NCBI RefSeq assembly: GCF_004010195.1
Contig: NC_057719.1
Span: 46,671,533 to 46,703,938, forward strand
Length of the DNA stretch: 32,406 bases
Source of the DNA: Chiloscyllium plagiosum
Lineage: Eukaryota
Reading direction: 5' to 3'
In this document: one piece after another, positions 1 to 32,406 of the stretch
Numbering within the stretch: the stretch's first letter is position 1
How the letters are laid out: each line of letters opens with the position of its first letter
Program-made: the position numbers and the translations under genes
Notes under the pieces: model-generated
What the model saw: the letters and a program-made list of their open reading frames with translations, nothing else
Databases searched by the model: none
What the model was told of the DNA's origin: nothing

Positions 1-996
1 TATCCAAATTAAACTCCATCTGCCACACTTCAGCCCAATGACCAATTGATCAAGATCTCTTTGTAATCTTAGGTAACCTTCTTCGTTGTCTACTATACAA
101 CAAATTTTGGTGTCATCTGCAAACCTACTAGCCATGTGTTCTAAATTCTCATCTAAATCGTTTATATAAATTACAAACAAAAGAAAGCCCAGTCTTGATC
201 CCTGTGGAACACTACTGGTCACAGGTCTCTGAAAAATAACCCTCCACCATTACTCACTGTCTCTTGTTGTTAAGCCAATTTTATATTCAATTGGCAAGTT
301 CACCCTGAATCTCATGTGATTTAACTTTACTAATTAACGTACTATGTGGAACCTTGTCAAAGGTTTTACTGAAGTCCAAGTAAACAACAGGAAAAATTGA
401 CGTTTCGGGCAAAAGCCCTTCAACAGGAAATGGGCAGCCCTTACTGATGAAGGGCTTTTGCCCAAGACATTGATTTTTCCTGCTCCTCGGATGCTGTCTG
501 GCCTGCTTTGCTTCTCCAGCACCACTCTAATCTTGACTCTGATCCCTAGCATCTGCAGTACCCACCTCCGTCTCGTCCAAGTAAACAACGTCTACTGGCT
601 CTGCCCTCATCAGTCTTCTTCATTACTTCCTGAAAAATATCAATCAAGTTTGTGAGACACGATTTCCCTCCACAAAACCATGCTGACTATCCCTAATCAA
701 TCCCTAATCAATCCTTGCACATAAATCCTATCTTTTAGAATCACCTCCAACAATTTATCTACCATCAAAGTCAGGTCGAGAGCTCCCAGGCTTCTCCTTA
801 CATCCTTCCTTCAGCAAGCTTACAACATTAGCCACACTCTAGTCCTCCGGTACCTCAACCATAGTTATAGATGATACAAATATTTCTAAAAGGGATGCTG
901 CAATTTCCTCCCTAACTTCCCACAACCTCCTGGGATGCACTAGATCAGATCTGGAGATTTATCCACCTTTGCATTTGCTAGGACCTCCAAGACTTC
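1..996 (-). mobile_element. CR1 LINE ORF2 (RT region) fragment, decayed; interrupted by a PLE insertion at 389-574
   Basis: The reverse complement reads gtttgcagatgacaccaaaatt (FADDTK) near 103-124, VPQGS near 196-210, DFSKTFDKVPH near 346-378 and QHGF near 676-687. It has stops and frameshifts and continues at 1850-1978 after a plus-strand CR1 insertion. Confidence 0.9.
389..574. mobile_element. Penelope-like element 3'-end fold-back insertion with two opposed, degenerate hammerhead cores
   Basis: A 15 bp TSD, GTCCAAGTAAACAAC, lies at 374-388 and 575-589. There is an internal imperfect inverted repeat (389-426 vs 444-481). The tail gatgctgtctggcctgctttgcttctccagcaccactctaatc...agcatctgcag matches the PLE ends at 11399-11462 and 31987-32115. 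Confidence 0.85.
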
Positions 997-1843
997 AAGG
1001 ACTGATTTGGGATAGTCAACATGGCTTTGTGCATGGGAAATCATGTCGTACAAACTTGATTGAGTATTTTGAAGAAGAAACAAAGAAGATTGATGAGGGC
1101 AGAGCAGTAGATGTGATCTATATGTATTTCAGTAAGGCATTCAACAAGGTTCCCCATGGGAGACTGATTAGCAAGGTTAGATCTCAGGGAATACAGGGAG
1201 AACTAGCCATTTGGATACAGAACTGGCTCAAAGGTAGAAGACAGAGGGTGGTGGTGGATGGTTGTTTTTCAGACTGGAGGCCTGTGACCAGTGGAGTGCC
1301 ACAAGGATCGGTGCTGGGCCCTCTACTTTTTGTCATTTACATGAATGANNNNNNNNNNNNNNNNNNNNNNNNNNNNNNNNNNNNNNNNNNNNNNNNNNNN
1401 NNNNNNNNNNNNNNNNNNNNNGTTCAGAAAAGATTTACAAGGATGTTGCCAGGGTTGGAGGATCTGAGCTACAGGGAGAGGCTGAACAGGCTGGGACTGT
1501 TTTCCCTGGAGCGTCAGAGGCTGAGGGGTGACCTTATAGAGGTTTACAAAATTGTGAGTGGCATGGATAGGATAAATAGACAAAGTCTTTCCCTGGGGCA
1601 ACTTTTTCACGCAGAGGGTGGTACGTGTATGGGATGAGCTACCAGAGGATGTGGTGGAGGCTGGTACAATTGCAACATTTAAGAGGCATTTGGATGGGTA
1701 TATGAATAGGAAGGATTTGGAGGAATATGGGCCGGGTGCTGGCAGGTGGGACTAGATTGGGTTGGGATATCTGGTTGGCATGGACGGATTGGATCGAAGG
1801 GTCTGTTTCCGTGCTGTACATCTCTATGATTCTATGACTCTAT
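997..1843 (+). mobile_element. 5'-truncated CR1 LINE (RT C-terminus plus 3' UTR), relatively young; contains the assembly gap
   Basis: ORF 969-1637 shows [35 protein letters not shown] and RLRGDLIEVYKI. The 3' tail is (tctatga[t/c])n. A candidate TSD, GACTTC, lies at 991-996 and 1844-1849. There is a short internal deletion near 1598 relative to the copy at 3711-3790. Confidence 0.93.
1349..1421. other. Assembly gap (73 N)
   Basis: Run of Ns inside the CR1 copy. Confidence 0.99.
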
Positions 1844-1849
1844 GACTTC

Positions 1850-1978
1850 CTCTTCCATAATGTGAACTGTTTCCAAAACATCAATATTTATTTCTCTGTG
1901 CTTTCTAGCCTCCATTTCTTTTTCCAAGGAGAAACAAATGCTTTAAAATATTCATTTAGTATCTCTCCCATCTTCTGA
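1850..1978 (-). mobile_element. Continuation of the minus-strand CR1 from 1-996 (EN-RT linker)
   Basis: The reverse complement contains gatgggagagatactaaatgaatatttt (MGEILNEYF), equivalent to the linker at 27514-27540. Confidence 0.75.
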
Positions 1979-3553
1979 GATTCCTCTATTTAGATCCGTA
2001 TGCATACTTAAAATAAATAGAGGATTCTTCTTTATGAATTCAATACAATTATTGTAATGATAATCTGAGTGAGATGAAGGTAAAGAGACAACACTATGGG
2101 AATTGTACACTGCAGCAATTCCTCTGATATATTTTCTAGACAAGAAGAGCTGCGTAATGCTGGAATTAACATGGAATCTGTAATCAGTTCAAAGGAAGTC
2201 ACATGGAACTAGAGTACAAAATTATTGTAGAAGAGACATGATTCATGTGGTTTAATGAGTTTGAACAAGTTTGCATCATCGAGCTCCAATGTGGATATTT
2301 GCGGGGCGAGTTCAATTTGCATCCTCCTGGCAAAGCTCAGAATCTTACCCTGGGCTGGTACTGGCATGATAGAGACTGTGCCATCCCCAGAATTGCTTCA
2401 CCATCCCAAATCTAATGCGGATCCATTCCCACATTGAGTCACATTGGTTCCTGCCATGCCTCAGGCTACAGTGATATGTCTAATTTGCAATTAAATGAAG
2501 CCCAAAGAAGAAATTAATTCAAGCCACAGGCTGCCAAGACCTAACCCATGGAGCAGTTAATCTGCTGAGTTCATAGAATCACCAACTGATATGGTACAGA
2601 AGAAAGCTATTTGGCCCATCATGTAGCGACTGGATCTTCAAATGAGCATTATGATTTCGTGACATCTTCCTGCCCTTTCCCCATAACCCTGCACATTATT
2701 TCTATTTATATAATCATCTGATGCCCTCTTGAATGCTTTGATTTAACTATGCATCCAGTCAGTGCCTTCCAGACCTACACCACACACTGTCTGATAAGGT
2801 TTCTTCTCATATCACATTTCCTTCTTTTGCAAATCACTTTCAATCTGTGTCTGCTCATTCTTGATTCACTAACATGGAGAAACGTTTCTGCTTATCTACT
2901 CTGTCCAACATCATGCACTTTTCAAAACTGGAGTCAAATCTCTCAGCTATCTCCCCTCCAAGGAAAGCAGACCCACCTTCAGCAATCTCTCTTCATAGCT
3001 GAAGTTCTTCATTCCTGGAAGCATTTTCACAAACTACCTCTGTACTCTCTCCAATAAAGTCATGTCGTTCCTAATGTGTAGTGCACGGAACTGTATACAA
3101 AACACCAGCTGAGGTCTAAGTAGTGTTTTATAAAGATTGAGCATAACTTCCTTGACATTCAATGACATTATTAATAAAACCAAGAGCATTGTGTGCTTTA
3201 TGAACTGTGCTCTCTACATGAACTGCAATATTTAATGCCTTATATCTACACCAATATCTCTCTGCTCCTGCACACACATTAGAGAAATACACTTTAGGTT
3301 AGACAGTCTCTCCACAGTCTTTTTACCGAAATATATCACCTCACATTTCTTTGATTTGAACTTCATCTACTACTTATTCGTTCATCCCACTAATTTCTTA
3401 ATGTCTTTTTGAAGTTTTACCACTGTCCTCACATTTTACAAAGCTTTGAAATTTTGTGTCATCCATAAATTTGGAAATTGTCCCTTGAACTCCAAAATTT
3501 AGATAATTCATATTAATCAATAAAAGCAAGGGTCTCAACACTATGCTTACAAT

Positions 3554-4033
3554 GATTTACAAGGATGTTGCCAGGGTTGGAGGATGTGAGCTATAGGGAG
3601 AGGCTGAATAGGCTGGGGCTGTTTTCCCTGGAATGTCGGAGGCTGAGGGGTGACTTTATAGAGGTTTATAAAATCATGAGGGGCATGGATATGATAAATA
3701 GACAAGGTCTTTTCCCTGGGGTGGGGAATCCAAAACTAGAGGGCATAGGTTTTGGGGAAAGTTTTAAAAGGGAACTAAGGTGCAACGTTTTAACACAGAT
3801 GGTGATACATGTATGGAATGAACTGCCAGAGGAAGTGATGGAAGCTAGTATAATTACACCATTTAAAAGTCATCTGGTTGGATCCATGAAAAGGAAGGGT
3901 TTAAAGGGATATGGGCCAATTGCTGGCAAATGGGACTAGATTAGGTTAGGATATATGGTCAGGATATATGGTCGGCATGGATGAGTTGGACCGAAAGGCT
4001 CTGTTTCTGTGCTGTACTTCTCTATGACTCTAT
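3554..4033 (+). mobile_element. 5'-truncated CR1 LINE 3' fragment
   Basis: ORF 3565-3939 reads MLPGLEDVSYRERLNRLGLFSLECRRLRGDFIEVYKIM. The 3' UTR and ctatgact tail closely resemble 1422-1843. A 13 bp micro-duplication lies at 3948-3973. Confidence 0.92.
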
Positions 4034-4167
4034 AATCCCAGGGGAACTTCTCTACAAACTTTCCTCCAGTCTGAGAGTTATCCATTCATAATCACTGTCT
4101 GTTTTCTATCCCTCAGCCAATTTTGTATCCGTGTTGTTATTAATCCTTTACCTCTGAGTTGGAACAT

Positions 4168-6365: not shown

Positions 6366-6392
6366 CTGATCCTGATCCCGATCCTGATCCTG
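6366..6392. repeat. Short (CTGATC)n hexamer repeat
   Basis: ctgatcctgatcccgatcctgatcctg. Confidence 0.8.
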
Positions 6393-6632
6393 TACCAACA
6401 GTTGGTTGCTTGTTGGACTTGAGTAATGTTTGGCAATTGCAAACTTCTCCATCCTTGGAATGGCTATAGAATGCTCATTTCTCATGCCATGTACTCTGCT
6501 ACTAAAGCATTTGACAAGGTCCTTCATGGTAAGCTGGTGTAGAAGATTAAGTCCCATGGGATTCACTGTGAGTTGGACACAAAACTGGCTTAGTCATAGA
6601 AGACAGAGGGCAGTTAGTTTAGAGTGGCATCA

Positions 6633-6831
6633 GTTGAAACTTTATTGCTGGAACAGCACAGCAGGTCAGGCAGCATCCAGGGAACAGGAGATTCGACGTT
6701 TCGGGAACAGGCCCTTCTTCAGGAAAGAAGCGTCGAATCTCCTGTTCCCTGGATGCTGCCTGACCTGCTGTGCTGTTCCAGCAATAAAGTTTCAACTTTG
6801 ATCTCCAGCATCTGCAGACCTCACTTTCTCC
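6633..6831. mobile_element. Young PLE 3'-end fold-back insertion with a perfect 67 bp inverted repeat
   Basis: Arms 6632-6698 and 6731-6797 are exact reverse complements with a 32 bp spacer. A 14 bp TSD, TTAGAGTGGCATCA, lies at 6619-6632 and 6832-6845. Confidence 0.92.
6695..6722 (-). ncRNA. Minimal type I hammerhead ribozyme-like core (family A)
   Basis: Minus strand reads CTGAAGA-A-GGG-CCTGTT-CCC-GAAA-CGTC. The helix I base ttc/gaa can pair. Confidence 0.7.
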
Positions 6832-7669
6832 TTAGAGTGGCATCATACTCAGCATGGACACGGTGGGCCAAAAGGCCTGTTCCTGTGCTGTGGTGTTCTA
6901 TGTTCCTATATTGTCTCTCATGAGTGTGACTTCACCAGGACTGACAGCAACAAAGACACTAGAGCAGAGGTTTGAAGAGTGCAAGTGAAGGTTTCTTTAC
7001 TAAAGTGCAGTGTATTCACAATGATTACCACAGGCGCCAGCAATGTAGCCTCAATAAAGTTTTCTCCTCCTTTGCCACCCACTGTGTTTAAAGGCAGTCC
7101 TGACGTCAGATGGAGGGAGCCTGCTCTGCAGTTGGCTTTGTTGGCCTCTAAGACTTGGTGGGTCATCGTTGGGTGCCTTTGGACTCAAAGCATCCACACC
7201 TACCTAGAGTCTCCTGTCCAGCTGGAGGCTCATTCTGTTCCTGAGAGGAAGCTTTTTACTCTTCCTGACCCTTCCTCCTCCCTGTGGGTACCACACCACC
7301 TTCCTTTGTGCACTCTCCCTGTGACCTCCATGCTGAGCACCTTTGGCTACAGTGCTGGAATGTGGGTCTGTGGAGAGACTGGGTCTCCATGGTGAGCATC
7401 AAGCTCTACATGAAGACAGCCAGGAAAATCCATACACAGGAGCCAGCACAGTCCTGGTAACATTGAAGTGTTTCCTTCAATTCAGTTTACTGTGTGCTTC
7501 TGACAAACCTGCCTGTTGTTCCTTTACCTGTCCGGGCATTTCGATAAAGTCATTAGGGCTGAGACCATGGGATCATCTTCTGCTTGTGGCTGAGAAATTG
7601 CCTGGTCTCTGGCAGTCATCTGTGAGCCCGGGACTTGGGGCATTCACCTCAATTGGCTAAGGAGAGGTG

Positions 7670-7757
7670 AAAATGTGTAGCTGGAAAAGCGCAGCAGGTC
7701 AGGCAGCATCCAAGGAGCAGGAGAATCGACGTTTCGGGCATGAGCCCTTCTTCAGGA
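7670..7757 (-). mobile_element. PLE 3'-end fragment (family A)
   Basis: The reverse complement reads cctgaagaagggctcatgcccgaaacgtcgattctcctgctccttggatgctgcctgacctgctgcgcttttccagc. Confidence 0.85.
7728..7755 (-). ncRNA. Minimal hammerhead ribozyme-like core (family A), all core nucleotides intact
   Basis: CTGAAGA-A-GGGC-TCAT-GCCC-GAAA-CGTC, with a GUC cleavage triplet and a self-complementary ACGT helix III. Confidence 0.72.
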
Positions 7758-7803
7758 GTGTCAGTGATGTGCTCTTTACATTGTGCTCCCAAGTTTAATT
7801 GAG

Positions 7804-7805
<2 letters not shown>

Positions 7806-7836: not shown

Positions 7837-7838
<2 letters not shown>

Positions 7839-10975: not shown

Positions 10976-10988
10976 TAAATAGCTGTCA

Positions 10989-11463
10989 AGATTAGAGTGC
11001 TGGAAAATACAGCAGGTCAGGCAGCGTCTGAGGAGCAGGAAAATCAACGTTTCAGGCAAAAGCCCTTCATTTCGGGTACAAGCTCCCAGCGTCATTCCTG
11101 AAAGAACGCCTCATCTTCTGCCTCGGAACCCTTCAAACCCATGGCATCAATGTTGACTTCACCAGTTTCCTCATTTCCATTCCCCCCACCTTACCCCAGT
11201 TCCAACCTTCCAGCTCAGCACTGTCTTAATGACCCATCCCACCTGTCCATCTTCCTTCCCCCCACTTCGCTCCACCTCCTCTCTGACCTATCACCTTTAC
11301 CCCCACCTCCATCCAACTATTGCACTCTCAGCTACCTTCCCCCCAGCCCCATTCCCCTCCCATTTATCTCTTCACCCCCGAGGCTCCCAGCTTTATTCCT
11401 AATGAAGGGCTTTTGCCTGAAACGTTAATTTCCCTGCTCCTCGATGCTGCCTGACCGGCTGTG
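10989..11463 (+). mobile_element. 5'-truncated Penelope-like element: inverted pLTR piece, GIY-YIG C-terminus and 3' pLTR
   Basis: 11104-11178 translates ERLIFCLGTLQTHGINVDFTSFLIS, matching the LxTLxPxGxN tail of PLE GIY-YIG endonucleases. 11010-11070 is an inverted copy of 11402-11462. The hammerhead cores are degenerate (11046-11070 truncated; 11399-11426 reads CTAATGA). Confidence 0.85.
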
Positions 11464-11494
11464 CCATTCAGGGAGACAACAGCTAATCTGAGCA

Positions 11495-11849: not shown

Positions 11850-12430
11850 TACACACATCCATCCACACATGCACTCTCGCCCTCTCTCACTCTCACACTC
11901 TCTCTCACACACACACACACATAAGTCTACGGGGTGAATTTGCATTTGCTGACTTGTATTTGCAGGTACATTCTATTTTACTCAAACAGCATACAATCTG
12001 TAGACAGTCAGTCAATGTGGCATTTTATAAATTCCGACTTTGGAAATAAAACCGTCTGGCTCCAGGTTGAGATACAAACAGACTCGAAACATAGCCTCAC
12101 TCTTAAAACCCATTGTCTGACCTGATGTGTCACCCTTATTCTGATAAAACCTGAAGTTATCTTGGGGGTGGGGGGTGGTGGCAGGGATTTACATATTAAT
12201 CTTCTGAAACCTGCACCTCCATTCTAACTGATTAATGACTTAAATAGCCATTTAGGTTTGTTCAATACATTCGCATAAATTGTATGACCCTTTGATCTTT
12301 TACTATAAATTCTGTATCCGATGTATTCTCACTCACTAGCTGCCTGAGGAAGGAGCGGGGGCTCTGAAAGGTTGCGGTTTCAAATAAACCTGTTGGACGA
12401 TAACCCGCCATTATGTGATTTTTGACTACA
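11850..12430 (+). mobile_element. PLE 3' portion, family B, with CT/CA simple repeats and a terminal hammerhead-like core (12344-12372)
   Basis: The terminal block ctgaggaaggagcgggggctctgaaag...aaataaacctgttggac...tgtgattttt is shared with 14101-14180 and 18095-18340. The PLE assignment is inferred from the ribozyme-bearing end; no ORF is seen. Confidence 0.65.
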
Positions 12431-13875: not shown

Positions 13876-14181
13876 AAGACTGTCCAACATGACACCAATT
13901 GTTAAAGTGCACTCGAGAATGTAACTTTTGAGAAAGGGTTTTGCGATTTACATGTGAAAGAACTGATACCAACATGGTCATTCTAAAAGGTGAGCGACTT
14001 AACAAACAATTCAGGTCTTTATCAACATATAATTTCAGTTACATCACAATGGAACCTTTTGCTATAAATTCTGTCTTACAGTCTTATTCTCCACAACCAC
14101 CTGATGAAGGAGCAGCACTCTGAAAGCTAGTGCTTCGAAATGAACCTGTTGGACTATAACCTGATGTTGTGTGATTTTTAT
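13876..14181 (+). mobile_element. PLE family B 3' fragment
   Basis: A 9 bp TSD, CATCATCTA, lies at 13867-13875 and 14182-14190. A 12 bp copy of the flank (aaagactgtcca) sits at the 5' junction. The family B terminal block is present. Confidence 0.75.
14101..14129 (+). ncRNA. Minimal hammerhead ribozyme-like core (family B)
   Basis: CTGATGA-A-GGAG-CAGCA-CTCT-GAAA-GCTA, with a self-complementary AGCT helix III and helix I cac/gtg. Confidence 0.7.
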
Positions 14182-14968
14182 CATCATCTACAAGGCACTA
14201 ATCAAGAGTGTAAGGGAATACATCCCATTTGTCAGGTTAACTGTAGCTCCATCAACACTCAAGAAGCTTGACACCATCCAGGGTAAAGCATCCCACTTGA
14301 ATGGCACCACACCTACAAGCATCCACTCCCTCCACCACCCACGCTTAGTGGCAGCAACGTGTACTTATCTACAAGATGCACTGCAGAACTTCACCAAAGA
14401 TCCTCAGGCAGCACCTTCTAAACCTTCTAGCACTTCCATCTAGAAGGACAAGGGCAGCAGATACATGGAAACACCGCCACCTTCAAGTTCCCCTCCAAGC
14501 CACTCACCATCCTGACTTGGAAATACGTTGCTGTTCCTTCCAATTGCTGGGTCAACATCCTGGAATTCCCTCCAAGTGTCATATGGAGGTACTTACAGCA
14601 TGTGGACTTCAGTGGTTGAAGAACCACTACCATCTTCTCAAGTGCAACTAGTGACAGGCAATATTATTGACGCAATGCAGCGACGTCCACATCCCATGAG
14701 GACCCCTAAGTTCATTGTGCCATGTAATTACCCATCACTCTGTGAAGGGCTTTGTTTCATCACTCATAAATTTGCTTTTTGTAGCTCAAACCCGGGTGTT
14801 TTTATTCAAAATATTAGTCTGAAGTAATATTCCATCTGTACATTTTCCATACAGCTACCCATCTTCCACATTTCTATACAACCACATCTCTTTGACTTGG
14901 TGTGAAGTGTATAATGGATAATGGAGAATTAGCAGCCTAAATAGTGTCTATTTGGATTATCATTGTAT

Positions 14969-17365: not shown

Positions 17366-17674
17366 GGGGTGGCATGGTGGCTCAATGGTTAGCACTACTG
17401 CCTCACAGCACCAGTGTCCCAGGTTTGATTCCAGCCTTGGGCGACTATCTGTGTGGAGCTTGCACATTGTCTGCGTGGGTTTCCTCCGGGTGCTCTGTTT
17501 TTCTCTCACAGTCCAAAGATGTCCAGGTCAGATGAATTGGCCAGGCTAAATTGCTCATAGTATCAGGTGCATTAGTGGGAGGGAAATGGGTCTGAGTGGG
17601 TTACTCTTCGGAAGGTCAGTGTGGACATGTTGGGCCAAAGGACCTGTTTCCACACTGTAGGGAATCTAATCTAA
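17366..17674 (+). mobile_element. HE1-type tRNA-derived V-SINE
   Basis: A box TGGCTCAATGG (17378-17388) and B box GGTTTGATTCC (17422-17432). V-domain gtgggtttcctccgggtgctc...cacagtccaaagatg. CR1-like tail gggccaaaggacctgtttccacactgta and (atcta)n. Confidence 0.93.
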
Positions 17675-18093
17675 ATTCCGACACCCCACAACTTTCATGC
17701 AACCTTTCTCTGCCTGTTTTCCCACCCCCACTCCCAACACTGTTATAATAAAATGTTTGTGCTTCTCTTGCAAGATAATTTAACAGGGATGTCTGCTGAT
17801 AATTCATTTTGGTCTAAAGTACATTCTGGATTACCTTATCACTTACTTAAATAACTGTCTATAACTCATAGTTGGAAATGTGCAGAGTACAAGAATGTGA
17901 CGGAGTCCCATTTTCAAAATTAAGACCACGTGAATATATCATAACTAAAATATTTAAGGGCTCATTGTTGTCTGTTTTCAGGAAACAACAGTAACCCAGG
18001 AGAAATGATGTGACATGGTAGAAATACTGCAGTAACTAGGTTGTAAAGTGTTTCTGCCTCTGAACAGGATGAAACTAACTTAGACAATAGTTA

Positions 18094-18340
18094 CCTGATG
18101 AAGGAGCAGTGCTCTGAAAGCTAGTACTTCCAAATAAATCTTTTGGACTATACATAAGTGAGTACTGCGGATGCTGGAGATTAGAGTCAAGAGTGTGGTG
18201 CTGGAAAAGCACAGCAGATCAGGCAGCATCCAAGGAGCAGGAAAATTGATGTTTCAGGCAAAACCCTTCATCAAGAATGAGGCTGGGAGCCTAGGGGGTG
18301 GAGAGATAAATTATCTAGCCTGGCGTTGTGTGATTTTCAA
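18094..18340 (+). mobile_element. Short family B PLE end, split by a minus-strand family A PLE end at about 18153-18315
   Basis: The family B block ends ...ttggactata at 18152 and resumes as cctggcgttgtgtgattttc at 18319. The intervening sequence is the reverse complement of the family A tail, with a degenerate core at 18248-18274. Confidence 0.8.
18095..18123 (+). ncRNA. Minimal hammerhead ribozyme-like core (family B), intact
   Basis: CTGATGA-A-GGAGC-AGT-GCTCT-GAAA-GCTA, with helix I tac/gta. Confidence 0.7.
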
Positions 18341-19178: not shown

Positions 19179-19493
19179 TAGATTAGAATCCCTACAGTGT
19201 GGAAACAGGCCATTTGGCCCAACAAGTCCACACCAACCGTCTGAAGAGTAACCCTCCCAGACCCATTTACCTCCGACTAATGCACTTAACACTATAGGCA
19301 ATTTAGCATAACCAATTCACCTAAGCTACACATCTTTAGATTGTGGGAGGAAACCAGAGCACCATGAGGAAACCCACACAGACACAGGGGGAATGTGCAA
19401 ACTCCAAGCAGACAGTCGCCCGAGGCTAGAATTGAACCCAGGTCCCTGCTGCTGTGAGGCAACAGTGCTAGCCACTAAGCCACTGTGCTGCCC
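19179..19493 (-). mobile_element. HE1-type V-SINE, near full length
   Basis: The reverse complement starts gggcagcacagtggcttagtggctagcactg, has B box gggttcaattc and the V-domain, and ends ccacactgtagggattctaatcta. Confidence 0.94.
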
Positions 19494-20848: not shown

Positions 20849-23789
20849 AGTTCTTCTGACCACTGCCTCCTGCTGGCCAAATGCCACCTACAGGACGAGA
20901 AGCAAGCTGGCAAGGGAACATGGAAACTGAATGCAAAGTTATTGACCCCAGAAAACATTGAGGAACTCAAAAGGGACTACACAGGTTGGAGAACTGTGAA
21001 GCCCCTCTTTGAGTCTCCAGCAGACTGATGGGAACCAGTAAAGGGAACATCAAGAGGTTCTTTATCTCCAAAGGTGTGCAGAAGGTGGGAGAGAGGCAGG
21101 CAAAACTATCCAAACTTCAGAACAGTATGCAGAACCTACTCCTGCTTCAGATGATGGGGTGGGGGTCAATGTCATGGAGGACCTCCAGGAGGTGAAGGGT
21201 CAGCATACCTAACTGTTTGTCTCAGAGGCCTCCAAGATAACCTTCTGGTCCAGAGACCATTCCATGGAGCAGGATGAGGCGTACTCACCTTTCTTTTTCC
21301 AGAAGGTGCACAAGGAAGGCTCCATGCTCAGCAGCCTGAAGGAAAAAGATAGCTCAGTAACATCATCTCAGTCTGACATCAAGAGGATCAGCAAATCCTT
21401 CTATGCCAGTCTGTATGACAGAAAGCCCACTGACAGCGCGGCCTCCCAGTCGCTCCCCCCTCTATCACGGAGATCTTAGACGACAGCACAAGGGAGAGGC
21501 TGGACCAGCCGCTATCTCTGGATGAGCTGACCAAGGCCCTCGAGTCCTTCGAAAAGAATAAAACCCTGGGAAGGGATAGCTGAGTGGTGGAGTTCTATTC
21601 TGCTCTATGGGACTTGATCAGCCAGGACCTGCTGGAGGTGTATGTCAGTATGATTCTAATAAGTACCATTAACAAAACCATGAGGAAAGGTACCATCACC
21701 CTAATCTACAAACAGAAGGGGGAGAGGGAGGAAATAATAAATTGGCAACCTATCTCACTGTTAAATGTGGATTACAAAATCTTGTCAAAGGTCATTGCCA
21801 ACTGGGTCAGGTCTGCTCTGGGGTCGGTGATTCACCCTGACCAAACCTGTGCTGTACCGGGCAGGAAGATCGCTGAGAGTCTCACACCCCTCAGGGATAT
21901 GATTGTCTACGTGCAGGACAGAAGGTTGGACACCTGCCTCATCAGCCTGGACCAGGAGAAAGCTTTGACAGGATTTCGTACATGTACATGAGAAATGATC
22001 TCTCCAAAATGGGGCTTTGGGGAGGGAATCTGCAATTGGATCCAACTGCTCTACACCAACATTGTTACTGCAGTCTCAATCAATGGGTGGGAATCAGAAA
22101 GCTATCCAATCAAATCTGGAGTCAGGCAGGGCTACCCTCTCTCCTGCTTTGTTTGTGTGCTGTACAGAGTGATTCGCTGAGTCCATCAGAAAGGATGTGA
22201 GCCTGACAGGGGTGACTATTCCTGGCAGCGGGGGCTTACTAGTTAAGGCCTCCCTGTACATGGATAATGTCGCTGTTTTGTGCTCGGATCCACTGTCAGT
22301 GCACAGACTCATGTCCATCTGCAACCAGTTCGAATAGGCCTCGGGGCCAAGGTAAATCGAGGCAAGAGTGAGGTCATGCTCTTTGGAAACTGAGCCGATC
22401 AATCCATTATCCCCCTCACCATCAGAACAGACAACCTGAAGGTGCTGGGTGTTTGGTTCAAGGGGCTGGGGCGTGCGCCAAGTCTTGGGAAGAGCGTGCC
22501 ACTAAAGTGAGGCAGAAACTGGATAGATGGGAATAAAAACCTGGTCATTGGGTGTGAGGTACTCTCAGTGTTGTTATACATGGCACAGGTCTGACTTATT
22601 CACTGAACCTGTGCTGCTACAGTCACCCAGGCCATCTTTCACTTTATGTGGAGATCAAAGATGGACTGTGTCCAAAGATCTGGATAAAAGGGGACCATGT
22701 ACAAAGATCTGGATAAAAGGGGAAAAACCACAGCAAACGTTACCCTCAACCTGATGGCCACCTTTGTGTGTGGCTGTATCAAGCTGTGTGTGGATCCCCC
22801 ATACGCAAACACCAAGTGTCTCTACGTACTGAGGTTCTACCTGTCCTCGGTGTGGCGAAAGATGGGCCTAGCCTCACTGCCGCGGAACGCTCCAACTAGT
22901 CGGACCATTCTGTATCACCTGTCACTCATGGAGAAATTTGTGAAAGAAAACACCTTTGACCACAAGTCCATCAGGAAGTGGTCAGCATCCTCAAGACTCT
23001 TAGGGAAAAGGAGAGGGTAGATCCTGTTGAGCGATTCCCTGGGCAGACTGTCTGAACGCCTCATTTAGCTGAATTCCACATTGCCAGAGCTTTCAAACAA
23101 GCACCAGGACATCGCTTGGCTGGTGGTGAGAAGGGCTCTGCCTGTGAGATCCTTTATGCACGCTCAGACTCTCTGTGCCACCGCACGCTGCCCTTGAAGC
23201 GGCTGCGGGGGGGAAGAGACTGTCACACACCTCTTTCTGGAATGTGCCTATGCAAAGGAAGGAATGCAGTGTTGTTTGTCGAGGTTTGTCCCGAGCAGCT
23301 CCGTGACGCGGGACGCTGTGCTCTACAGTCTGTTTCCTAGGATGCACACCAAGACAAACATCAACTGTGCCTAGTGGACCATCACCTTGGTGAAAGACCC
23401 TCGTTGGTCTGTCTGAAACTTGCTAGTCTTCCAGTCGAAAGAGTTAACCCCGACTGAGTGTTATAGACTGGCACATTCCAAGGTTCAGGACTATGTGCTG
23501 AGGGACACGCTAAATCTTGGGGCAGCTGCTGCCAAGGCGTGGTGGGGAAAGACCACCGTGTAAGGCCCTTCTGTCGAAGAACAAGGTGGGGGTTCATTCA
23601 GTAACTGGGCCCTGTTGACGCTTCAGCTAAATGCCAAGAGGTTGATTGTAAACATAGAGAATGATGAAAGTCAAAGAATTAATTTGTTCTCTGTAAGTTA
23701 AGAGAGCATAGATGTAAATGACTCCATTAACTGTACGGGTACCAAAGATTTCTGACTCTGAATAAAGTATATTTATGCAACAAAAAAAA
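20849..23789 (+). mobile_element. Tx1-type (L1-clade) LINE, 5'-truncated and decayed
   Basis: APE end SDH and GKGTWKLN. RT motifs NWQPISLLNVDYKILSK, SLDQEKA, SGVRQGYPLS and YMDN (22257-22268). Cys/His knuckle CP*SGCGGEETVTHLFLEC (23189-23245). Stop at 23561-23563, AATAAA at 23761 and an A-rich tail to 23789. Confidence 0.93.
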
Positions 23790-24918: not shown

Positions 24919-25193
24919 GGGGGTGGCTCCGTGATTAGCACCAGAGACCCAAGTTCAATTCTAGTCTTGAGTGACTGTCTATGTATAGTTTGCACATTCT
25001 CCCCATGCCTGTATGGGTTTCCTCCCACAGTCGAAAAATGTTCAGGTTAGGTGGATCGGCGATGCTAAATTGCCCATAGTATCCAGGGATTTGCAGAGTA
25101 GGTGGGTTAGCCATGGGAAATGCAGGGTTACAGGGATAGGCTGGGGGCTGGATCTGGGTGGGTTGCTCTTTGTGGGGTCAGTGCAGACTCAAT
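24919..25193 (+). mobile_element. HE1-type SINE, diverged subfamily with deletions
   Basis: B box-like agttcaattc, then tttgcacattctccccatg...tttcctcccacagtc...aggttaggtggat...gctaaattgcccatagt. Confidence 0.85.
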
Positions 25194-26058
25194 GCTATTG
25201 ACATTTGAAAGACCTCACTACACAAAAGTGATACCCAGTCCCTCAGATAAAAGTAAAACACTTACTCTGTGCAGTTTAGATGTGGAGACAGTGATTTTCC
25301 ATTTCCTTTGTGCCCTTATGGTTTGGATGAGGAGGCAGACAACACAGGTAGAGCTTCTCAGAGTGAGCCATGGGCTCAACCTCTCTACTTGGTGACCCTC
25401 CCCCCAAACACTTATATTCTTTCCTGCCTTGCCCTCCCCATCTACCTCATCACCTTCGATCTTCCCCACATTCCCATTCAACCTGTTTATTTAACAGCTC
25501 ACCTTCCCTTACCTGAGCCCCAGCATACAGTTTAGTCAAAGTAGATATAATTGTGCACTGTCCCCAATCACAGCCAGGGTGCTGGTGATGATCAAAGGTG
25601 TACTTGTTCAACAGTACACCTTACCCTGCTGTACTTTGTGACTTCCTACCCTCTACTGTTGAGTTACTCTGCTCACAATTATTATTGCCTCTTGCATCAC
25701 AGCATGCTGCCTTCAATTCCCACAATTGCCTTTCTCAATTTAGTGACCACAGAAGATAATACCTCCTGACTTTCAATGAACAGACACTCAGGACAGAATG
25801 TGGCCCACTCCCTGGCTGAGTTGGAAAGACAATCTCAACTGAGGAGAGACTAAATCTCTTACTGATCTCTGCAGCTCCTCGTTGCCTTGATCATCATGAC
25901 TGTGTGCAATGATGAGAATGAAGGACTATGGGGTTGGAAGTTCTGAATGAGGCAGCAAAGGGCAAAAAGGTAAGGCAAAGCCTGGCAGAGGTCTGATCTT
26001 CCAAGTAGGTGGAAAGTGAGTGAACACATTAACTTTAAATGGCTAACATTTCAATTTC

Positions 26059-26198
26059 AGTATCTGAGGAAGTGACATATCAGACTCGAAACATTAACTT
26101 GGTTCCTCTTTGCATGAATGGTGCCAGACCTGCTGAGTTTCTCCAGCACTTTCTGTTTTTATTTTAAACTTCCATCTCCTCAGTATTTTGCTTTTTAC
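26059..26198 (+). mobile_element. Old PLE 3' end (family C) with a degenerate hammerhead core at 26064-26095
   Basis: CTGAGGA-A-GTGAC-ATATCA-GACTC-GAAA-CATT (stem II has two mismatches), followed by gccagacctgctgagtttctccagcactttctg, which is related to the family A tail. Confidence 0.65.
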
Positions 26199-27154
26199 AG
26201 ATTAATAGGATATGTTCCTGTGCTGGCTGCAACACTACTATGCAAAATGAATTTTGGGCAATCTTAATTTTCTGATGGACACAGGCTTCATGCACATTCC
26301 ATTTTGAAATTAATTGTCAAGATCACTGAGACAAACCTGATGTGACAGATAGAAAATATGTCTCTAAAATCTATATCTGATTGTGCTACACATCACAGTG
26401 ATCAATAGGGATAATGGATGCCTGAAACAGAAAACATTCTGATCTCCAGCATCAACATTATACAGTCTAATGATCACAGTAAATGAATTAAAATAAAAAT
26501 TTCCAGAAAATGAAGCACATGCCTGATTGTTACGGAAACTGAGACTGTAACCACTTAAGACAATGTCTTTGTTCTTGGGTGGGCTGAGAGAAACAAAACA
26601 ATACAACTTTAAAAAAAAACATGTTATTGATTAAAATATCAGCAAGAGGAAACAATGAGGAAAGTATCACACAGCTGCAACACCATGGGTTTCCAAATTT
26701 ACAGGGAGTGGGCAAGGAGACAGGGAAATATGGCAAGGTGAGGGCTCTAAAATTCTGAAAATTGGAATGCTCAAGAAGCTTCAACACACATATAGATATG
26801 GCATTAACCATATGTAGAATAACGGAGCACTGTCCTTCTTCCTCAGTAACGTTAACTATTCAGATTATAGATCCTGTAGGATTCTGAACTTTTCAATCTC
26901 TCGTCTTTTCACTCTCTTTTCTTTACAGCATGAAAAAAATTAGGATTAGGTTTAATGTCATGTAAATTCAAGTACAGAGATACAGGAGTACAGTGAAAAG
27001 TGTATCGAAGTTGCCAGTCCTGGCACCATCTTAGGTACAAAATGTTAGATACAAATAGAAAAATAAAGAAAAATGTTAAAAGTTCAACATTATACTCCTT
27101 CTATAGCTGTGGGTCTGCAGTCACTCCATGCTGGCCTCTCCCCACGAGGCCTCA

Positions 27155-29801
27155 CAACTGAAATGTGGAGCTTATTCGAGGAACAGCTATTGGGTGTCCT
27201 TGATAAGTCTGTACCTGTCAGGCAGGGAGGTAATGGTCAAGCGAGGAAGCCTTGGTTTACTACAGAAGTTGAATCTCTTCACAAGAAGAAGAGAAAGGCT
27301 TATGTTAGGATGAGAAGTGAAGGCTCAGTTAGCCAGGAAAGACCTAAAGAGAGAGCCAAGGAGAGCCAGGAGGGGACATGAGAAGTCGATAGCAGATAGG
27401 ATCCAGGAAAACCCTAAAGCTTTCTATAGATATATTAATAATAAAAGAATGACTAGAGAAAGATTAGGGCCAATCAAGGATAGTAGTAGGAAGTTGTGAG
27501 TGGAGTCCGAGGAGATGGGGAAGCACTAAATGAATATTTTTGTCAGTATTCATACTGGAAAAAGATAATGTGGTCGAAGAGAATAGTGAGATGTAGGCTA
27601 CTAGACTCGATGAGATCCATGTTCATAAGGAGGAGGTGTTAGCAATTCTGGAAAGTGTGAAAATAGATAAGTCCCCTGGGCTGATGGGATTTATCCTAGG
27701 ATTCTCTGGGAAGCCAGGGACGGGATTACAGAGCCTTTGGCTTTGATCTCTATGTCGTCATTGTCTACGGGAATAGTGCCAGAAGAATGGAAGATACCAA
27801 ATGTTGTCCCCTTGTTCAAGAAGAGGAGTAGACCAGCGAGCCTTACTTTGGTTGTGAGTAAAGTGTTGGAAAAGGTTACAAGAATTTGGATTTATAAATC
27901 ATCTAGTGAGTAATAAGTTCATTAGAAATAGTCAGCACTATTTTGTGAACACTAGGCCGTGCCTCACAAATCTGATTGAGTTCTTGGAGAAGGTGACCAA
28001 AGAGGTGAATGTGGGTAAAGCGGTTGATGTGGTGTATATGGATTTCAGTAAGGCATTTTGATAATGTTCCCCACAGTAGGCTATGGCCCAAAATATGGAA
28101 GCATGGGATTGTGGGCGATTATTCCGTTTGGATCAGAAATTGGCTTGCTGAAAGAAGCCAGAAGGTGGTGATTGATGGGAAGCGTTCATCCTGGAGTACA
28201 GTTACTAGTGGTGTACTGCAAGGATCTGTTTTGGGGCCACTGCTGTTTGTCATTTTTATAAATGACCCAGATAGGTGTAGAAGGATGGGTTAGCAAGTTT
28301 GCGGATGACACTAAAGTTGGTGGAGTTTTGGATACTTCTGAAGGATGTTGCAGTTTACAGAGGGACATAGATAAGGTACAGAGCTAGGATGAGAGGTGGC
28401 AAATGGAGTTTAATGTGGAAAAGGGTGAGGTGATTCACTTTGGAAGGAGCAACAGGAATACAGAGTACTGGGCTAATGGTAAGATTCTTGATGGAGTAGA
28501 TGAACAGAGAGATCTCGATGTCCACGTACTGTCACAAAAGTGGTCCTTTTTCTAAAAGCTGTTCCTTTTCTCAAGGGTACTGTGTCCTTGATTGTTTTCA
28601 GAGGGATCATAAAACCCTCCGAGCTCCAAAACGCCTAGTTTGGTACAGAGATGAAAAAGGATTTTGAGAAGACTTCTGTTTATATGTAAACAGATGAGAC
28701 TTCAGCTCAAAGTGGTCATGTTTTAGAAGTAACCTATATAATGAAAGGGGAGTGGTCAGTTCTGAAAGCTGAGCAATTCAGTCCACAACTCGTTAGGCAG
28801 TTCAGCTGTGTGGAAAGATCTGCTACACTCTCTTTCTGTCTGCCCTTCTAACTTCAACCTGTAAGCCTTTGTTTCATTTTTGCTGTGTGTGCAGGGGTTT
28901 GTTTATTGGGACTGGTATGTATATTTGGAACTGCGTAATTAGTTTAGTTTGGATAGATTGAGTTCAGTAGGGGTTCTTTATTCTGATTTTTTGTTACACT
29001 TTGAAATTTTGTGACTAAATATTTAGAATCTGGTAGTTAACCTAGCTAACTTATTCTTGATAATTTTCACTGTACACTGACTGAAACAAATTGCAAAATT
29101 ATGGCCTGGGCTACCTGCTTAAGAATGTTTTGAGTTGTCTGGCCTAATTTATAACAGCACATAGATCCCTGAAAGTTGCCACCCAGGTTGGCAGAGTTAA
29201 GAAGGCATATGGTGTATTAGCTTTTATTGGTAGAGAGATTGAGTTTCAGAGCCATGAGGTTATGCTGTAGCTGCCATCACACTTGGAGTATTGCACATAG
29301 TTCTGATCCCCGCATTATAGGAAGGATGTGGAAGCTTTGGAAAGGGTTCAGAGGAGATTTACTAGGATGTTGCCTGGTATGGAGGGAAGATCTTATGAGG
29401 AAAGGCTGAGGGACTTGAGGCTGTTTTTGTTAGAGGTGACTTAATTAAAACATATAAAGATAATCAAAGGGTTAGATAGGGTGAACAGTAAGAACCTTTT
29501 TCCTCAGATCATGATGGCCAGCACAAGGGGACATAGCTTTAAATTAAGGGTTGATAGATATAGGACAGGTGTCAGAGGTAGTTTCTTTACTCAGAGAGTA
29601 GTAATGGCATGGAATGCGTTGCCTGCAACAGTAGTAGACTCGCCAACTTGAAGGACATTTACACAGTCACCAGATAAACATACGGATCAAAATGGAATAG
29701 TGTAGAATAGATGGGCTTCAGATTGGTGCCACAGGTCAGCACAACATTGAGGGCCAAAGGGCCTGTACTGCACTGTAATGTTTTATGTCTATGTTCTATG
29801 T
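27155..29801 (+). mobile_element. 5'-truncated CR1 LINE (about 2.0 kb of ORF2 plus 3' UTR) interrupted by a solo LTR
   Basis: [42 protein letters not shown] (28298-28315) and VQRRFTRMLPG. The tail is (ttctatg)n at about 29781-29801. It has multiple stops and frameshifts. Confidence 0.95.
28530..29156 (+). mobile_element. Solo LTR (627 bp), Gypsy- or ERV-type
   Basis: Termini are TGTCACAA...TTATAACA. A 4 bp TSD reads GTAC (28526-28529) and GCAC (29157-29160). Removing the insert restores the CR1 sequence gtccacgtac-atagatccctgaaag. Strand is inferred weakly from a TATA-like ctatataa near 28734. Confidence 0.85.
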
Positions 29802-30605
29802 CAGTGTCTCCATTCCCCCCTCAAAGGCATACTCTCCCCTGCACTGGGCTGAGACCCTCACCACTGACCACCGATCACCATCCAGGATCACCAATCACTC
29901 CTCTGCCAACTGTCTGTCCAGCCGGCTCAGTCACTGCCACACTCCGGACTCCAGACTCCCAATGCCGTCTCCACCAGTACCTCCATGGCTGAGGTCTCTC
30001 CAGAAGGTAGGCAGAAAAAATTTTTTTAAAAACGACAAAATAAATGGACATGAAGAGAAGAAGCCAAATTATCCCACTGATTCTCAAAAAAGTTGGAGTC
30101 AAAGGGGGAGTAATTAAGGGGGCAATGAAACTTCCCCTCATAGTGCAGCATTGCCTTTGATTTCCTTCACATTTTAAAATTCCATCATACACTCAGACAG
30201 AGTATAGGGTTAAGAGAGATTCAGATGCAATCCAGTTTAATTTTAATGAGGTCTGACATACAGAACAAAAGTCATGCAAATTTTTTTTTGCTAGAAACCA
30301 CTGCTCACAGATGTTGCTTCCGTTCGTCCTCAATTGCCTCCTCTTCCTCCTGGAGATGACAGCTCATGGTTAAGTGGTTTCACAGATCTTAACAACATTC
30401 CACTATCTCCTAAAAATGGCCATTCCTCATGTCTGATCCTCAGCAGCAACTGTCACCAGGATGCTAAACATCATAACTAGACAATTTTTGCCCTGACCTC
30501 AAATGACAACCAAAGCAGATTTTTCAGAGAGATTATCGACTAACAATGGTGTCTAGGAAATGGATGGGATATTCTCCTCCAGTCAGTTCAAGAACGTAGA
30601 CATTA

Positions 30606-31986
30606 ATTGTAATACCTTTCTATCAAGTCTCCCCTCAGCCTCTGCTGCTCAAGTTTAAAAAAAAGAGTTTTTCTATACTCTCCTTATACCTCATACCCTT
30701 TTAATCCAGGCAGCATCCTGGTAAACCTCTTCTGCACTCTTTCCAAAGTCTCCACATCCTTCCTGTAATGTGGTGACCAGAATTGAACAGTAATACTCTA
30801 AGTGTGGCCTAACCAAAGTCTTATAAAGCTGCAACATGACATCCTGACTCTTGTATTCAACTTCCTGACCAATTAAGGCAGCATACCATATGCCTTCTTT
30901 ACCATCCTTTCCTTGCAAGGCCACATTCAGGGACCTATGGACTTGAAGCAAAAGATCCCTCTGCCCATCAGTGCTGTTCAGGGTCCTGCCATTAACTGTC
31001 TACTTTTCCTTCACATTCCTCCCAAAGTGCAGCACCCCCCACGTACTTGGATTAAACTCCATCTGCCATTTCTCCACCCATATCTGCAGCTGATCTATAT
31101 CCCACTGTATCCTTTGGCAACCTTCTACACTATCCACAGCTCCACAAACCTTTGCATCGTCTGCAAACTAACTAACACACCCATTTACATTTTCTAAGTC
31201 TTGTAGACATCACAAACAGCAGAGATCCCAAAATGGATCCCTGTTCAACACCACTAGTCACAGCCCTCCAGCCTGAAAAACACTCTTCCACCACTACCCT
31301 CTGTCTTCTATGGGCAAGCCAATTCTGAATCCACGGAGTGAATTCATGAGCCTACCATGATAGACTTGTCAAAAACCTTACTAAAATCCTTATAAACAAC
31401 ATCCACTGCTCTATGCTGATTGATGTTTTTGAGGAGGTGACAAAGGTGATCAATCAAATTATTAAGACATGACCTGTCCTGCACAAAGCCATGTTGACCG
31501 TCCCTAATCAGGTCATGCTTTTCCAAATGTGTGTAAATCCTATCCCTAAGAATTTTCTCCAATAGCTTCCCGATCATCAACATGAGACTCATGGGTCTAT
31601 AGTTTCCTAGATTATCCTTATTTCCCTTGAACAGAGGAACAATATTAGCTACTCACCAGTTCTCCAGGACTTCTCCAGTGGCTAGTGAGGATACAAAGAT
31701 CTTAGTCAAGGGCCCAGCAATCTCCTTTCTTGCCTTTCACAGTAACCTGGGGTATATACCATCGTGCTCTGGGGACTGATCCACCTTAAGGCACTTCAAG
31801 AGACCGAACATCATTTCTTTCTTGACCTCAAATGTAGCATATTAGCATGCTCCACACAAATCTCAGTATCCTCCGTATCCTTCTCCTGAGTGAATATCAA
31901 CACAAAGTACTCATTTAGGATCACACCCACATTCTCTGCCTCTAAGCATAAGATCCCTCCTTTATCTTTGAATGGTCCTACATTCT
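30606..31986 (-). mobile_element. CR1 LINE ORF2 RT fragment, decayed
   Basis: ORF 30691-30951(-) reads LQLYKTLVRPHLEY, and FADDAK lies near 31150-31167. ORF 31344-31592(-) reads GKLLEKILRDRIY...QHGFV...DFSKVFD. Confidence 0.93.
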
Positions 31987-32406
31987 AGGTAAAAAGGAGG
32001 ACTGCAGATGCTGGAAACCAGACTCTAGATTAGAGTGGTGCTGGAAAAGCACAGCAGTTCAGGCAGCATCTGAGGAGCAGGAAGATCGATGTTTCGAGCA
32101 AAAGCCCTTCATCAGGAATAGAGGCAGAGTGGAGAGATAAAGGAGAGGAGGGGGGGGGGTGGGGAGAAAGTAGCATAGAGTACAATAGGTGAATGGGGGT
32201 GGGGATGGAGGTGATAGGTCAGAGAGGAGGTGGAGTGGATAGATGGAAAGGAAGATAGGCAGGTAGAACAGGTCATGGGGATGGTCCTGAGCTGGAAGGT
32301 TGGAGCTAGGGTGAGGTGGAGGTAAGGGAAAATGAGGAAACTGGTGAAATCCACATTGATGCCATGGGGTTGAAGTGTTCTGAGGCGGAAGATGAGGTGT
32401 TCTTCC
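31987..32406 (-). mobile_element. Penelope-like element 3' end (GIY-YIG C-terminus, pyrimidine-rich spacer, pLTR); runs off the window
   Basis: The minus strand from 32405 translates EEHLIFRLRTLQPHGINVDFTSFLI. It is homologous to 11104-11463 and carries the complete family A tail. Confidence 0.88.
32088..32115 (-). ncRNA. Minimal hammerhead ribozyme-like core (family A), slightly decayed
   Basis: CTGATGA-A-GGGC-TTTT-GCTC-GAAA-CATC. The ACGT palindrome has changed to ACAT, consistent with CpG decay. Confidence 0.62.

What the first reader, a model, noticed from the sequence alone, without database searches (positions are those of the whole stretch)
399..32115. Twelve minimal hammerhead-ribozyme cores in three Penelope-end families within 32 kb
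Seen: the motif CTGAnGA-A-[stem II hairpin]-GAAA-NN-TH recurs throughout the window. Family A (GGGC/GCCC stem, GAAACGTC) is at 399-426(-), 444-471(+), 6695-6722(-), 7728-7755(-), 11046-11070(-), 11399-11426(+), 18248-18274(-) and 32088-32115(-). Family B (GGAGC/GCTC[C/T] stem, GAAAGCTA) is at 12344-12372, 14101-14129 and 18095-18123. Family C is at 26064-26095. Stem II sequences differ completely between families while the core and pairing are kept. Helix III is reduced to a loopless palindrome (ACGT or AGCT), which can only form between two copies. Established: Penelope-like elements carry minimal type I hammerheads in their pLTRs, thought to act as dimers. Here two family A ends sit directly downstream of a GIY-YIG C-terminus. 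Inference: most copies are ORF-less and SINE-sized, so this genome may hold a very high-copy population of ribozyme-tipped retroposons, and intact cores (6695, 7728, 14101, 18095) might cleave read-through host transcripts. The general phenomenon is known; whether these specific families are described I cannot tell.
Basis: partly seen in the sequence, partly recalled or inferred. Interest (0 to 1): 0.75.

Follow-up and report, generated by a model that had tools for sequence, protein, structure and literature searches.

The report
Penelope retroelement ends carrying minimal hammerheads
The motifs are real but ordinary, mostly decayed end-pieces of Penelope-type jumping genes whose tiny self-cutting RNA motif is already described; their ends suggest the motif sits in a short stretch likely repeated at both the capped start and the polyadenylated end of the element's RNA, a clue to how these elements copy themselves rather than evidence that they cut host transcripts.

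Summary
All 12 motifs are where stated, but only 4 are fault-free and one of these (6695) lies inside a 71-bp hairpin. They are pseudo-LTR (pLTR) ends of endonuclease-bearing Penelope-like elements (A and B: GIY-YIG plus CX4CxxC linker, Neptune/Nematis type; C shares A's tail). Minimal hammerheads in pLTRs are published (PMC4209133). The window is average: 324 pLTR pieces/Mb in 1.34 Mb sampled, about 1.15 million genome-wide, about 200,000 with strict cores. Helices covary between lineages, but within a subfamily cores decay like flanks. 0 of 76 strict cores had a same-strand partner within 1 kb, and RNA reads show no sense-strand loss at the cut site, so host-transcript cleavage is unsupported. 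Short copies are not a SINE family: their 5' ends pile up 1-10 nt before the core, about 30 nt after a TATA-like box, with an extra G (79/100 in B), likely cDNAs that ran off the capped start. The scan reported this before on other DNA; I re-tested it. Not found in the scan or papers searched: family B RNAs are polyadenylated 26-29 nt after the cut site, upstream of where genomic copies end, which suggests an LTR-like terminal redundancy with strand transfer.

The parts
374..589 (.). Family A fold-back insertion: arm 388-429 (-), core 399-426 with A6>U; arm 441-565 (+), core 444-471 degenerate; 15-bp target-site duplication 374-388 / 575-589
6619..6845 (.). Family A fold-back insertion: arm 6632-6725 (-) with core 6695-6722; arm 6727-6832 (+) lacking the 5' core; 71-nt inverted repeat; 14-bp target-site duplication 6619-6632 / 6832-6845
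7663..7760 (-). Solo short family A pLTR copy, fault-free core 7728-7755, starting about 4-5 nt before C3
10985..11070 (-). Inverted family A pLTR arm, core truncated (lacks C3-G5), at the 5' side of the 11102-11464 copy
11101..11469 (+). 5'-truncated family A element: GIY-YIG C-terminus 11101-11205, 3'UTR, core 11399-11426 with G5>A, tail
11884..12430 (+). Older family B 3'UTR and pLTR (about 70% to sampled copies), core 12344-12373 with broken palindrome
13884..14184 (+). Family B 3'UTR and pLTR, fault-free core 14101-14129, predicted cut after 14129; 9-bp duplication 13867-13875 / 14182-14190
14063..14068 (+). TATAAA box 30 nt before the inferred RNA start (14093), conserved in family B
   Evidence: sequence
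14139..14159 (+). Poly(A) signal position (AATAAA in the family, AATGAA in this copy, 14139-14144) and family poly(A) addition site 14156-14159
18088..18340 (+). Short family B pLTR, fault-free core 18095-18123, split by a family A insertion; its tail resumes at about 18312
18156..18311 (-). Family A pLTR with part of the 3'UTR, inserted in the family B tail; core 18248-18274 with C3>U
26057..26194 (+). Old family C solo pLTR (tail homologous to A), core 26064-26095 with stem II and palindrome damaged
31986..32406 (-). 3' end of a long family A element (GIY-YIG C-terminus 32325-32405, 3'UTR, core 32088-32115, tail); continues about 2.2 kb beyond the window across an N gap into N-terminal ORF sequence

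Best explanation
These are 5'-truncated and fold-back end pieces (pLTRs) of endonuclease-bearing Penelope-like retrotransposons, and the minimal hammerhead is likely maintained in the master elements, where it likely forms the first 30-40 nt of the capped element RNA, while the dispersed copies decay neutrally and likely do not cut host RNA. Shown: Penelope origin of A and B, shared 3' ends, a 5'-end hotspot 1-10 nt before C3 with an extra G, a TATA-like box about 30 nt upstream, neutral decay, and family B poly(A) addition 26-29 nt past the cut site in a related organism's reads. Inferred: transcription starts at the 5' strand of helix I. The element's reverse transcriptase starts internally in the tail, about 80-120 nt past C3. 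It often runs off the cap (adding C opposite it) or folds back, which yields the 100-200 bp copies. Longer copies arise by a jump to the 3' copy of the same stretch or from tandem read-through RNA. Cleavage would need a second hammerhead (the 3' pLTR, a tandem unit, another molecule) and probably the element's protein, so it would occur mainly in full-length or tandem RNAs.
For: RT motifs and GIY-YIG upstream of family A copies (GIY-YIG E 2.8e-4, RVT_1 E 4.8e-4, both below Pfam's cut-offs). Family B upstream ORF matches it (31%, E 3e-15) with the same CX4CxxC linker. Fixed 3' ends with variable 5' ends; B has two 3' ends about 38 nt apart, the known tail. The tail continues into an ATG about 40 nt later in A. 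5' ends at -10..-1: 76 of 163 A and 33 of 74 B copies ending in -49..+60, versus 14.8 and 6.7 expected. Base before the start is G in 79 of 100 listed B copies (39 of 60 without fold-back-like triplets) and 63 of 100 A2 copies (27 of 52), versus 26% expected; control offset 43 of 100 raw, 10 of 50 after the same exclusion. TATAAA at -37..-40 (B), TTTATC at -35 (A), CATAAA at -35 (C). Helix I, II and 15.2-16.2 pair within each family with different letters. Non-CpG mismatch core versus flanks: 8/190 versus 165/4572 (p 0.69) in A1 and 3/240 versus 176/5569 (p 0.12) in B. Poly(A) loose ends at 14156 and 14159 in 951 of 2709 laid reads; no A8 tract there in 110 genomic B copies. PMC11167929 (parts 1-2 of 4 read): internal RT initiation, protein-assisted hammerhead, cleavage not needed for insertion in vitro.
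Against: No capped 5' ends were seen directly; both read sets listed no place where many molecules begin, though these poly(A) libraries are unsuited to that. In D. virilis Penelope the start lies 46 nt before an intron whose end abuts helix I (PMC2377424 passages; PMC4209133), so a start at helix I is not universal. In the random-locus alignment the base before hotspot breakpoints was not G-rich (A solo 6 of 29, B solo 4 of 10), though chance extension blurs that measure. The ORF start after the B tail was not found. The RNA run is from an organism only linked by label, and the poly(A) reads may come from few loci and from host transcripts. Family C was tied to an endonuclease in only 1 of 114 copies.
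Confidence: 0.72

Rival explanations
1. The short copies are a self-propagating non-autonomous SINE- or retrozyme-like family that uses its hammerheads to cut and circularise its own RNA.
For: Most copies are short and ORF-less. Head-to-tail arrays of 3-4 hammerhead units 250-320 bp apart exist (L259, L262, L270), the layout of non-LTR retrozymes (bioRxiv 2026.07.22.740005, parts 1-3 of 5 read).
Against: Short and long copies share the same subfamily letters and 3' ends. Copies keep the whole core upstream of the cut, which a cleaved monomer would lack. Only 14 of 247 core-bearing copies had a same-type same-strand neighbour within 300 nt. No such array lies in this window.
Confidence: 0.1
2. 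Intact dispersed cores cut read-through host transcripts and so shape host RNA levels; in family B a cut would remove the poly(A) tail that the pLTR itself supplies.
For: About 200,000 strict cores. Copies are in poly(A) RNA. The B cut site lies between the upstream RNA and the poly(A) site. A 3'UTR hammerhead lowers expression in Clec2 (PMC6765202, passage).
Against: Single minimal motifs did not cleave in vitro and dimers were slow (PMC4209133); 8 of 9 Xenopus dimers did not cleave (bioRxiv 2026.07.22.740005). Depth across the cut falls alike on both strands (A: 871/1300 versus 630/976; B: 1386/1487 versus 246/294). Neutral decay. No close partner. Predicted folds do not give the hammerhead for 6695, 14101 or 18095.
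Confidence: 0.07
3. The 5'-end hotspot is not a transcript start but a DNA-level or structural stop: the element's endonuclease nicks its own pLTR, or the cDNA self-primes there through the helix I mirror.
For: The anole protein cleaves ATT motifs in its own pLTR junction (PMC11167929) and family A's hotspot is at ATT. About half of copies are fold-backs (103 of 216 A, 53 of 89 B), some joined through the helix I GAAT match (7 of 100 rows). Self-priming palindromes are described (PMC3846280, passage).
Against: The B hotspot has no ATT. The extra G and the 30-nt spacing from a TATA-like box in three families are not explained. Solo copies show the hotspot too (29 of 62 A, 10 of 23 B).
Confidence: 0.11

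Closest known systems
[quoted passage not shown]
   Same: Type I core, extra nucleotide after A9, G10.1-C11.1, short helix I, palindromic 15.2-16.2 with no loop III, mostly single dispersed copies, opposite-strand pairs, several consensus families per genome.
   Different: About 200,000 strict cores here versus about 4,000 (coelacanth) and 9,000 (Xenopus) there, with different descriptors. No shark or skate name in the one supplement file searched (file 1 could not be searched). No mapping of copy ends there.
Neptune/Nematis-type EN+ Penelope-like elements (Craig et al. 2021, PMC8557442; passages)
   Same: RT, CX2-5CxxC linker and C-terminal GIY-YIG with two Cys inside the core; 5' truncation, inverted 5' pLTR, optional 30-40 bp tail, partial tandems.
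   Different: No RT tree was built, so Neptune versus Nematis is untested. Family A has a long low-complexity N-terminal region.
Anole Poseidon PAc (Frangieh et al. 2024, PMC11167929; parts 1-2 of 4)
   Same: Copy 3' ends at two sites that bound a tail downstream of the hammerhead; no RNA ends seen at the cut site.
   Different: In PAc the ORF starts at stem II; in family A the ATG is about 165 nt after C3. That paper proposes multi-copy tandem RNA and, in the parts read, no cap run-off or poly(A) site inside the pLTR.
Non-LTR retrozymes (bioRxiv 2026.07.22.740005; parts 1-3 of 5)
   Same: pLTR-derived ORF-less units with type I hammerheads; found in the one cartilaginous fish sampled; tandem arrays exist in this genome.
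   Different: The window copies are solo or inverted, not tandem, so they fail that paper's definition.

Membership tests
PLE minimal type I hammerhead | Core CUGANGA...GAA(A)..UH | tested here: met
   Family majority lines; 4 of 12 window copies fault-free
PLE minimal type I hammerhead | Helix II of 4 or more bp with G10.1-C11.1 and an extra nucleotide after A9 | tested here: met
   Helix II paired 0.91-0.98 per position in 45 A copies and 0.89-1.0 in 9 B copies; extra A in 58 of 58
PLE minimal type I hammerhead | Short helix I and loopless palindromic helix III that covary between lineages | tested here: met
   ATTC/GAAT or GATT, AGTT/AACT, (T)CAC/GTG(A); ACGT versus AGCT; cross-family helix I pairing 0.0-0.65 in five of six swaps, 0.91 in one
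PLE minimal type I hammerhead | Self-cleavage as a dimer or with protein help | not testable with these tools
   Genomic footprint mixed; simple cofolding did not give the dimer fold
EN+ Penelope-like element | RT plus C-terminal GIY-YIG upstream of the pLTR | tested here: met
   A: both domains, weak Pfam hits. B: endonuclease by similarity to A's, no Pfam hit, RT core not retrieved. C: 1 of 114 copies
EN+ Penelope-like element | pLTR at both ends, inverted 5' copy, optional tail | tested here: met
Neptune/Nematis clades | CX2-5CxxC linker between RT and EN | tested here: met
   CX4CxxC in A and B translations
Neptune clade | RT phylogeny | not tested
   No reference RT set was held
Non-LTR retrozyme | Two or more head-to-tail units, each with a hammerhead | tested here: not met
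   None in the window; 0 of 76 strict cores with a same-strand partner within 1 kb; met only at L259, L262, L270
SINE | Own RNA-derived head and independent lineage | tested here: not met
   Copies begin inside the PLE pLTR and share subfamily letters with long copies; no tree built

The most novel reading that the evidence does not exclude
Family B RNA is terminally redundant like an LTR-element genome: a roughly 65-nt stretch holding the hammerhead runs from the cap (8 nt before C3) to a poly(A) site 55-58 nt after C3 and is present at both ends. Reverse transcription starts beyond the poly(A) site in the 5' copy, makes a strong-stop cDNA, and either inserts it (the short copies) or jumps to the 3' copy. 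The two terminal hammerheads of one RNA are the dimer partners, so cleavage would decap and deadenylate or circularise the RNA, and the same pLTR pieces supply poly(A) sites to many transcripts.
Probability: 0.3. Interest if true: 0.72.

Novelty: new member of a known kind. Interest (0 to 1): 0.4.

Why it matters
The motif and its link to Penelope elements are known, and this window is typical of its genome. The value lies in scale and in the ends. About a million copies record where reverse transcription starts and stops, and they place the hammerhead at the very front of the element's RNA and, in family B, just before a used poly(A) site. The role of these ribozymes and the way pLTRs are regenerated are stated as open in PMC8557442, PMC2377424 and PMC7761336; these coordinates make both testable with cap, poly(A) and cyclic-phosphate mapping.

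Tried and rejected
Rfam scan: no hammerhead family at E<=5. Pfam: nothing for the two window endonuclease stubs or the two B frames. PDB sequence search: 0 hits. Run search: no RNA holder listed on record; X22 laid 0 reads. A genomic footprint of cleavage (copies starting at the cut site) was tested and came out mixed. Random loci: 15 of 37 A starts in +26..+33 (p 2.5e-4, window chosen after viewing), 6 of 21 B (p 0.10). First 100 rows of genome-wide patterns, counted by eye: subfamily A1b has its mode at +28 (about 12 events, next 7 at +34) after dropping 46 rows of a 17-nt duplication that begins at +28, 2 rows of another duplication and about 6 indel or unassigned rows. A2/A3 has 15 rows at +28, of which 7 are fold-back joints, against 14 at +33. 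B shows no peak. Not established. Cofolding of short cores did not return the hammerhead dimer; energy models cannot test this. The MAFFT alignment across families was off-register for B and D, so pairs were counted by script instead. In one search coarse clusters suggested a more conserved core (59/1350 versus 506/5352), but copies were selected for having the core and one cluster was a fold-back artefact; avoids this. A spliced-intron origin of the hotspot was considered: solo copies share no upstream exon. About 6 of 39 'solo' A starts look by eye like longer copies of unsampled subfamilies (the script flagged 1). Paper searches with no relevant hit: shark + Penelope + hammerhead, Penelope-like + cartilaginous fish, Penelope + hammerhead + TATA + capped, extra G + cap, pLTR + polyadenylation. 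Lunse et al. 2017 was not held and is cited only through PMC6765202 and PMC7761336. Repbase and Dfam could not be searched, so whether these families are already catalogued is open.
Full report
Observation. Only four have fault-free core nucleotides: 6695, 7728, 14101 and 18095. The 6695 copy has a stem II mismatch and is folded into a 71-nt perfect hairpin. Rfam finds no hammerhead, as expected for motifs without helix III. That the host is a shark-like fish is my recall of its repeats and the label of earlier notes, not a result of my calls.

What the families are. Nineteen other family A loci share a fixed 3' end about 120 nt past C3 and have variable 5' ends. The longest carry RT motifs, a CX4CxxC linker and a GIY-YIG domain (Pfam hits are below cut-off). 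Family B loci carry a related endonuclease with the same linker and end at two sites about 38 nt apart, the tail known for Penelope elements (PMC8557442 passages; PMC11167929). The linker points to Neptune or Nematis (PMC8557442); no tree was built. Family C shares A's tail and is older. In family A the tail runs on into an ATG about 40 nt later, so the hammerhead lies in the 5' leader of a full-length RNA. The copy at 32088 continues about 2.2 kb beyond the window. Two fold-backs and one B copy have 15-, 14- and 9-bp target-site duplications.

Abundance. In 140 ten-kb stretches taken at round coordinates on the 34 largest contigs (1,341,177 non-N bases) HMMs found 224 A, 122 C and 89 B pieces, or 324/Mb. 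The window's 13 is near the 10.5 expected. Extrapolated, this is about 1.15 million pieces. Strict cores number 76, or about 200,000 genome-wide. Endonuclease sequence lies upstream of 21 of 200 A, 2 of 80 B and 1 of 114 C copies.

Selection. With pairing not required for inclusion, helices I and II and the 15.2-16.2 pair form within each family using different letters. Within a subfamily, cores mutate like flanks: 8/190 versus 165/4572 non-CpG sites in A1, and 3/240 versus 176/5569 in B (p 0.12, a trend only). The fold is therefore kept in the master lineages, with no sign that inserted copies are under selection.

Host cleavage. Published single minimal motifs did not cleave and dimers were slow (PMC4209133, parts 1-3 of 4). 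The anole ribozyme needed its protein and was dispensable for insertion in vitro (PMC11167929, parts 1-2 of 4). Eight of nine Xenopus dimers were inactive (bioRxiv 2026.07.22.740005, parts 1-3 of 5). Here 0 of 76 strict cores have a same-strand strict partner within 1 kb and 33 of 76 are in fold-backs. In one single-cell poly(A) run (X21, about 2% read, an organism linked by label only), depth across the cut site changes alike on both strands for A (871/1300 versus 630/976) and B (1386/1487 versus 246/294), and no pile of molecule ends was listed. This shows abundant uncut RNA; it cannot measure a cut fraction. Arrays suited to dimers exist elsewhere (L259, L262, L270).

Where short copies begin. 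Of copies ending between -49 and +60 of C3, 76 of 163 (A) and 33 of 74 (B) begin at -10..-1, against 14.8 and 6.7 expected; solo copies alone give 29 of 62 and 10 of 23. They keep the whole core, the opposite of what a cleaved template would leave. I had noted this and an initiator-like motif before earlier scan notes added two leads, a TATA-like box and an extra G. Both held. TATAAA lies at -37..-40 in 8 of 13 long B copies, TTTATC at -35..-37 in 22 of 40 long A copies, and CATAAA/CATATA at -35 in 3 of 7 C copies. The base before the start is G in 79 of the first 100 of 320 B matches and 63 of the first 100 of 3,477 A2 matches, versus 26% expected. Without fold-back-like triplets the counts are 39 of 60 and 27 of 52. 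A control offset gives 43 of 100 raw and 10 of 50 after the same exclusion. That reverse transcriptases add C opposite a cap is recalled; my search found no paper. Against: D. virilis Penelope starts further upstream, before an intron (PMC2377424 passages), and no capped end was observed.

Cleavage footprint. Starts at cut+1 are enriched in random A copies and in subfamily A1b but not clearly in A2/A3 or B (exclusions listed under Tried and rejected). Fold-back joints through helix I and RT stalling are alternative causes. I leave this unresolved.

Poly(A) site. Of 2,709 X21 reads laid on the 14101 copy, 951 carry A-runs attached at 14156 or 14159, 12-15 nt after the family AATAAA and 26-29 nt after the predicted cut, with about five times more reads on the sense strand. 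A(A/T)TAAA is present in 67 of 85 random and 20 of 25 searched B copies, and none has an A8 tract there. Genomic B copies end at about +80 or +118, beyond this site. An RNA ending at +56 cannot template those ends from its 3' copy, so reverse transcription likely starts in the 5' copy or on read-through RNA. Only 18 of 195 A copies have such a signal, so this is shown for B alone. The number of loci behind these reads and their host or element origin are unknown. Searches of papers and of scan notes found nothing on this.

Verdict. A known kind of element and ribozyme, in a typical window. The SINE and host-cleavage readings are weak. The best mechanism is cap run-off and fold-back by an internally primed Penelope RT (confidence 0.72); the scan has reported that before on other DNA. 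The added lead is an LTR-like terminal redundancy in family B (probability 0.3). Supplements of the bioRxiv paper and one supplement file of PMC4209133 were not seen and may list such families.

Noticed in passing
L259, L262, L270 (G000:C22, C17, C6): Head-to-tail arrays of 3-4 young family A hammerhead units 250-320 bp apart, each running past the tail into the ORF start; retrozyme-like and the best substrates for a dimer assay.
   Followed up: partly
L031:9735, L135:6950, L201:7225, L210 (-): A fourth minimal hammerhead family with a 6-7 bp helix II and U after A9; no endonuclease match nearby in these four loci.
   Followed up: partly
G000, rows: 46 of 100 listed subfamily A1b matches carry a 17-nt tandem duplication that begins at the predicted cut site; one lineage or recurrent template jumps, untested.
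   Followed up: no
window 8897-9961: Large near-perfect inverted repeat (192-nt arms at 99%, plus 84-nt arms at 96%) around about 400 nt; resembles a non-autonomous DNA transposon.
   Followed up: no
window 20880-23560 (+): Broken LINE reverse-transcriptase sequence; Tx1-like by recall.
   Followed up: no
window 17367-17673 (+), 19179-19493 (-), 24920-25200 (+): Three copies of a dispersed repeat, likely a tRNA-derived SINE by recall.
   Followed up: no
window 60-390, 598-1850, 3550-4030, 27100-29800, 30650-31980: Many CR1/L2-type LINE fragments (label recalled); several Penelope pieces are inserted into them.
   Followed up: no
window 18088-18340: A family A copy is inserted into the tail of a family B copy; similar nested joints appear elsewhere (L245).
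   Followed up: partly
family A, -19..-7 before C3: A short hairpin just upstream of the inferred start seems to covary between subfamilies by eye; not tested.
   Followed up: no
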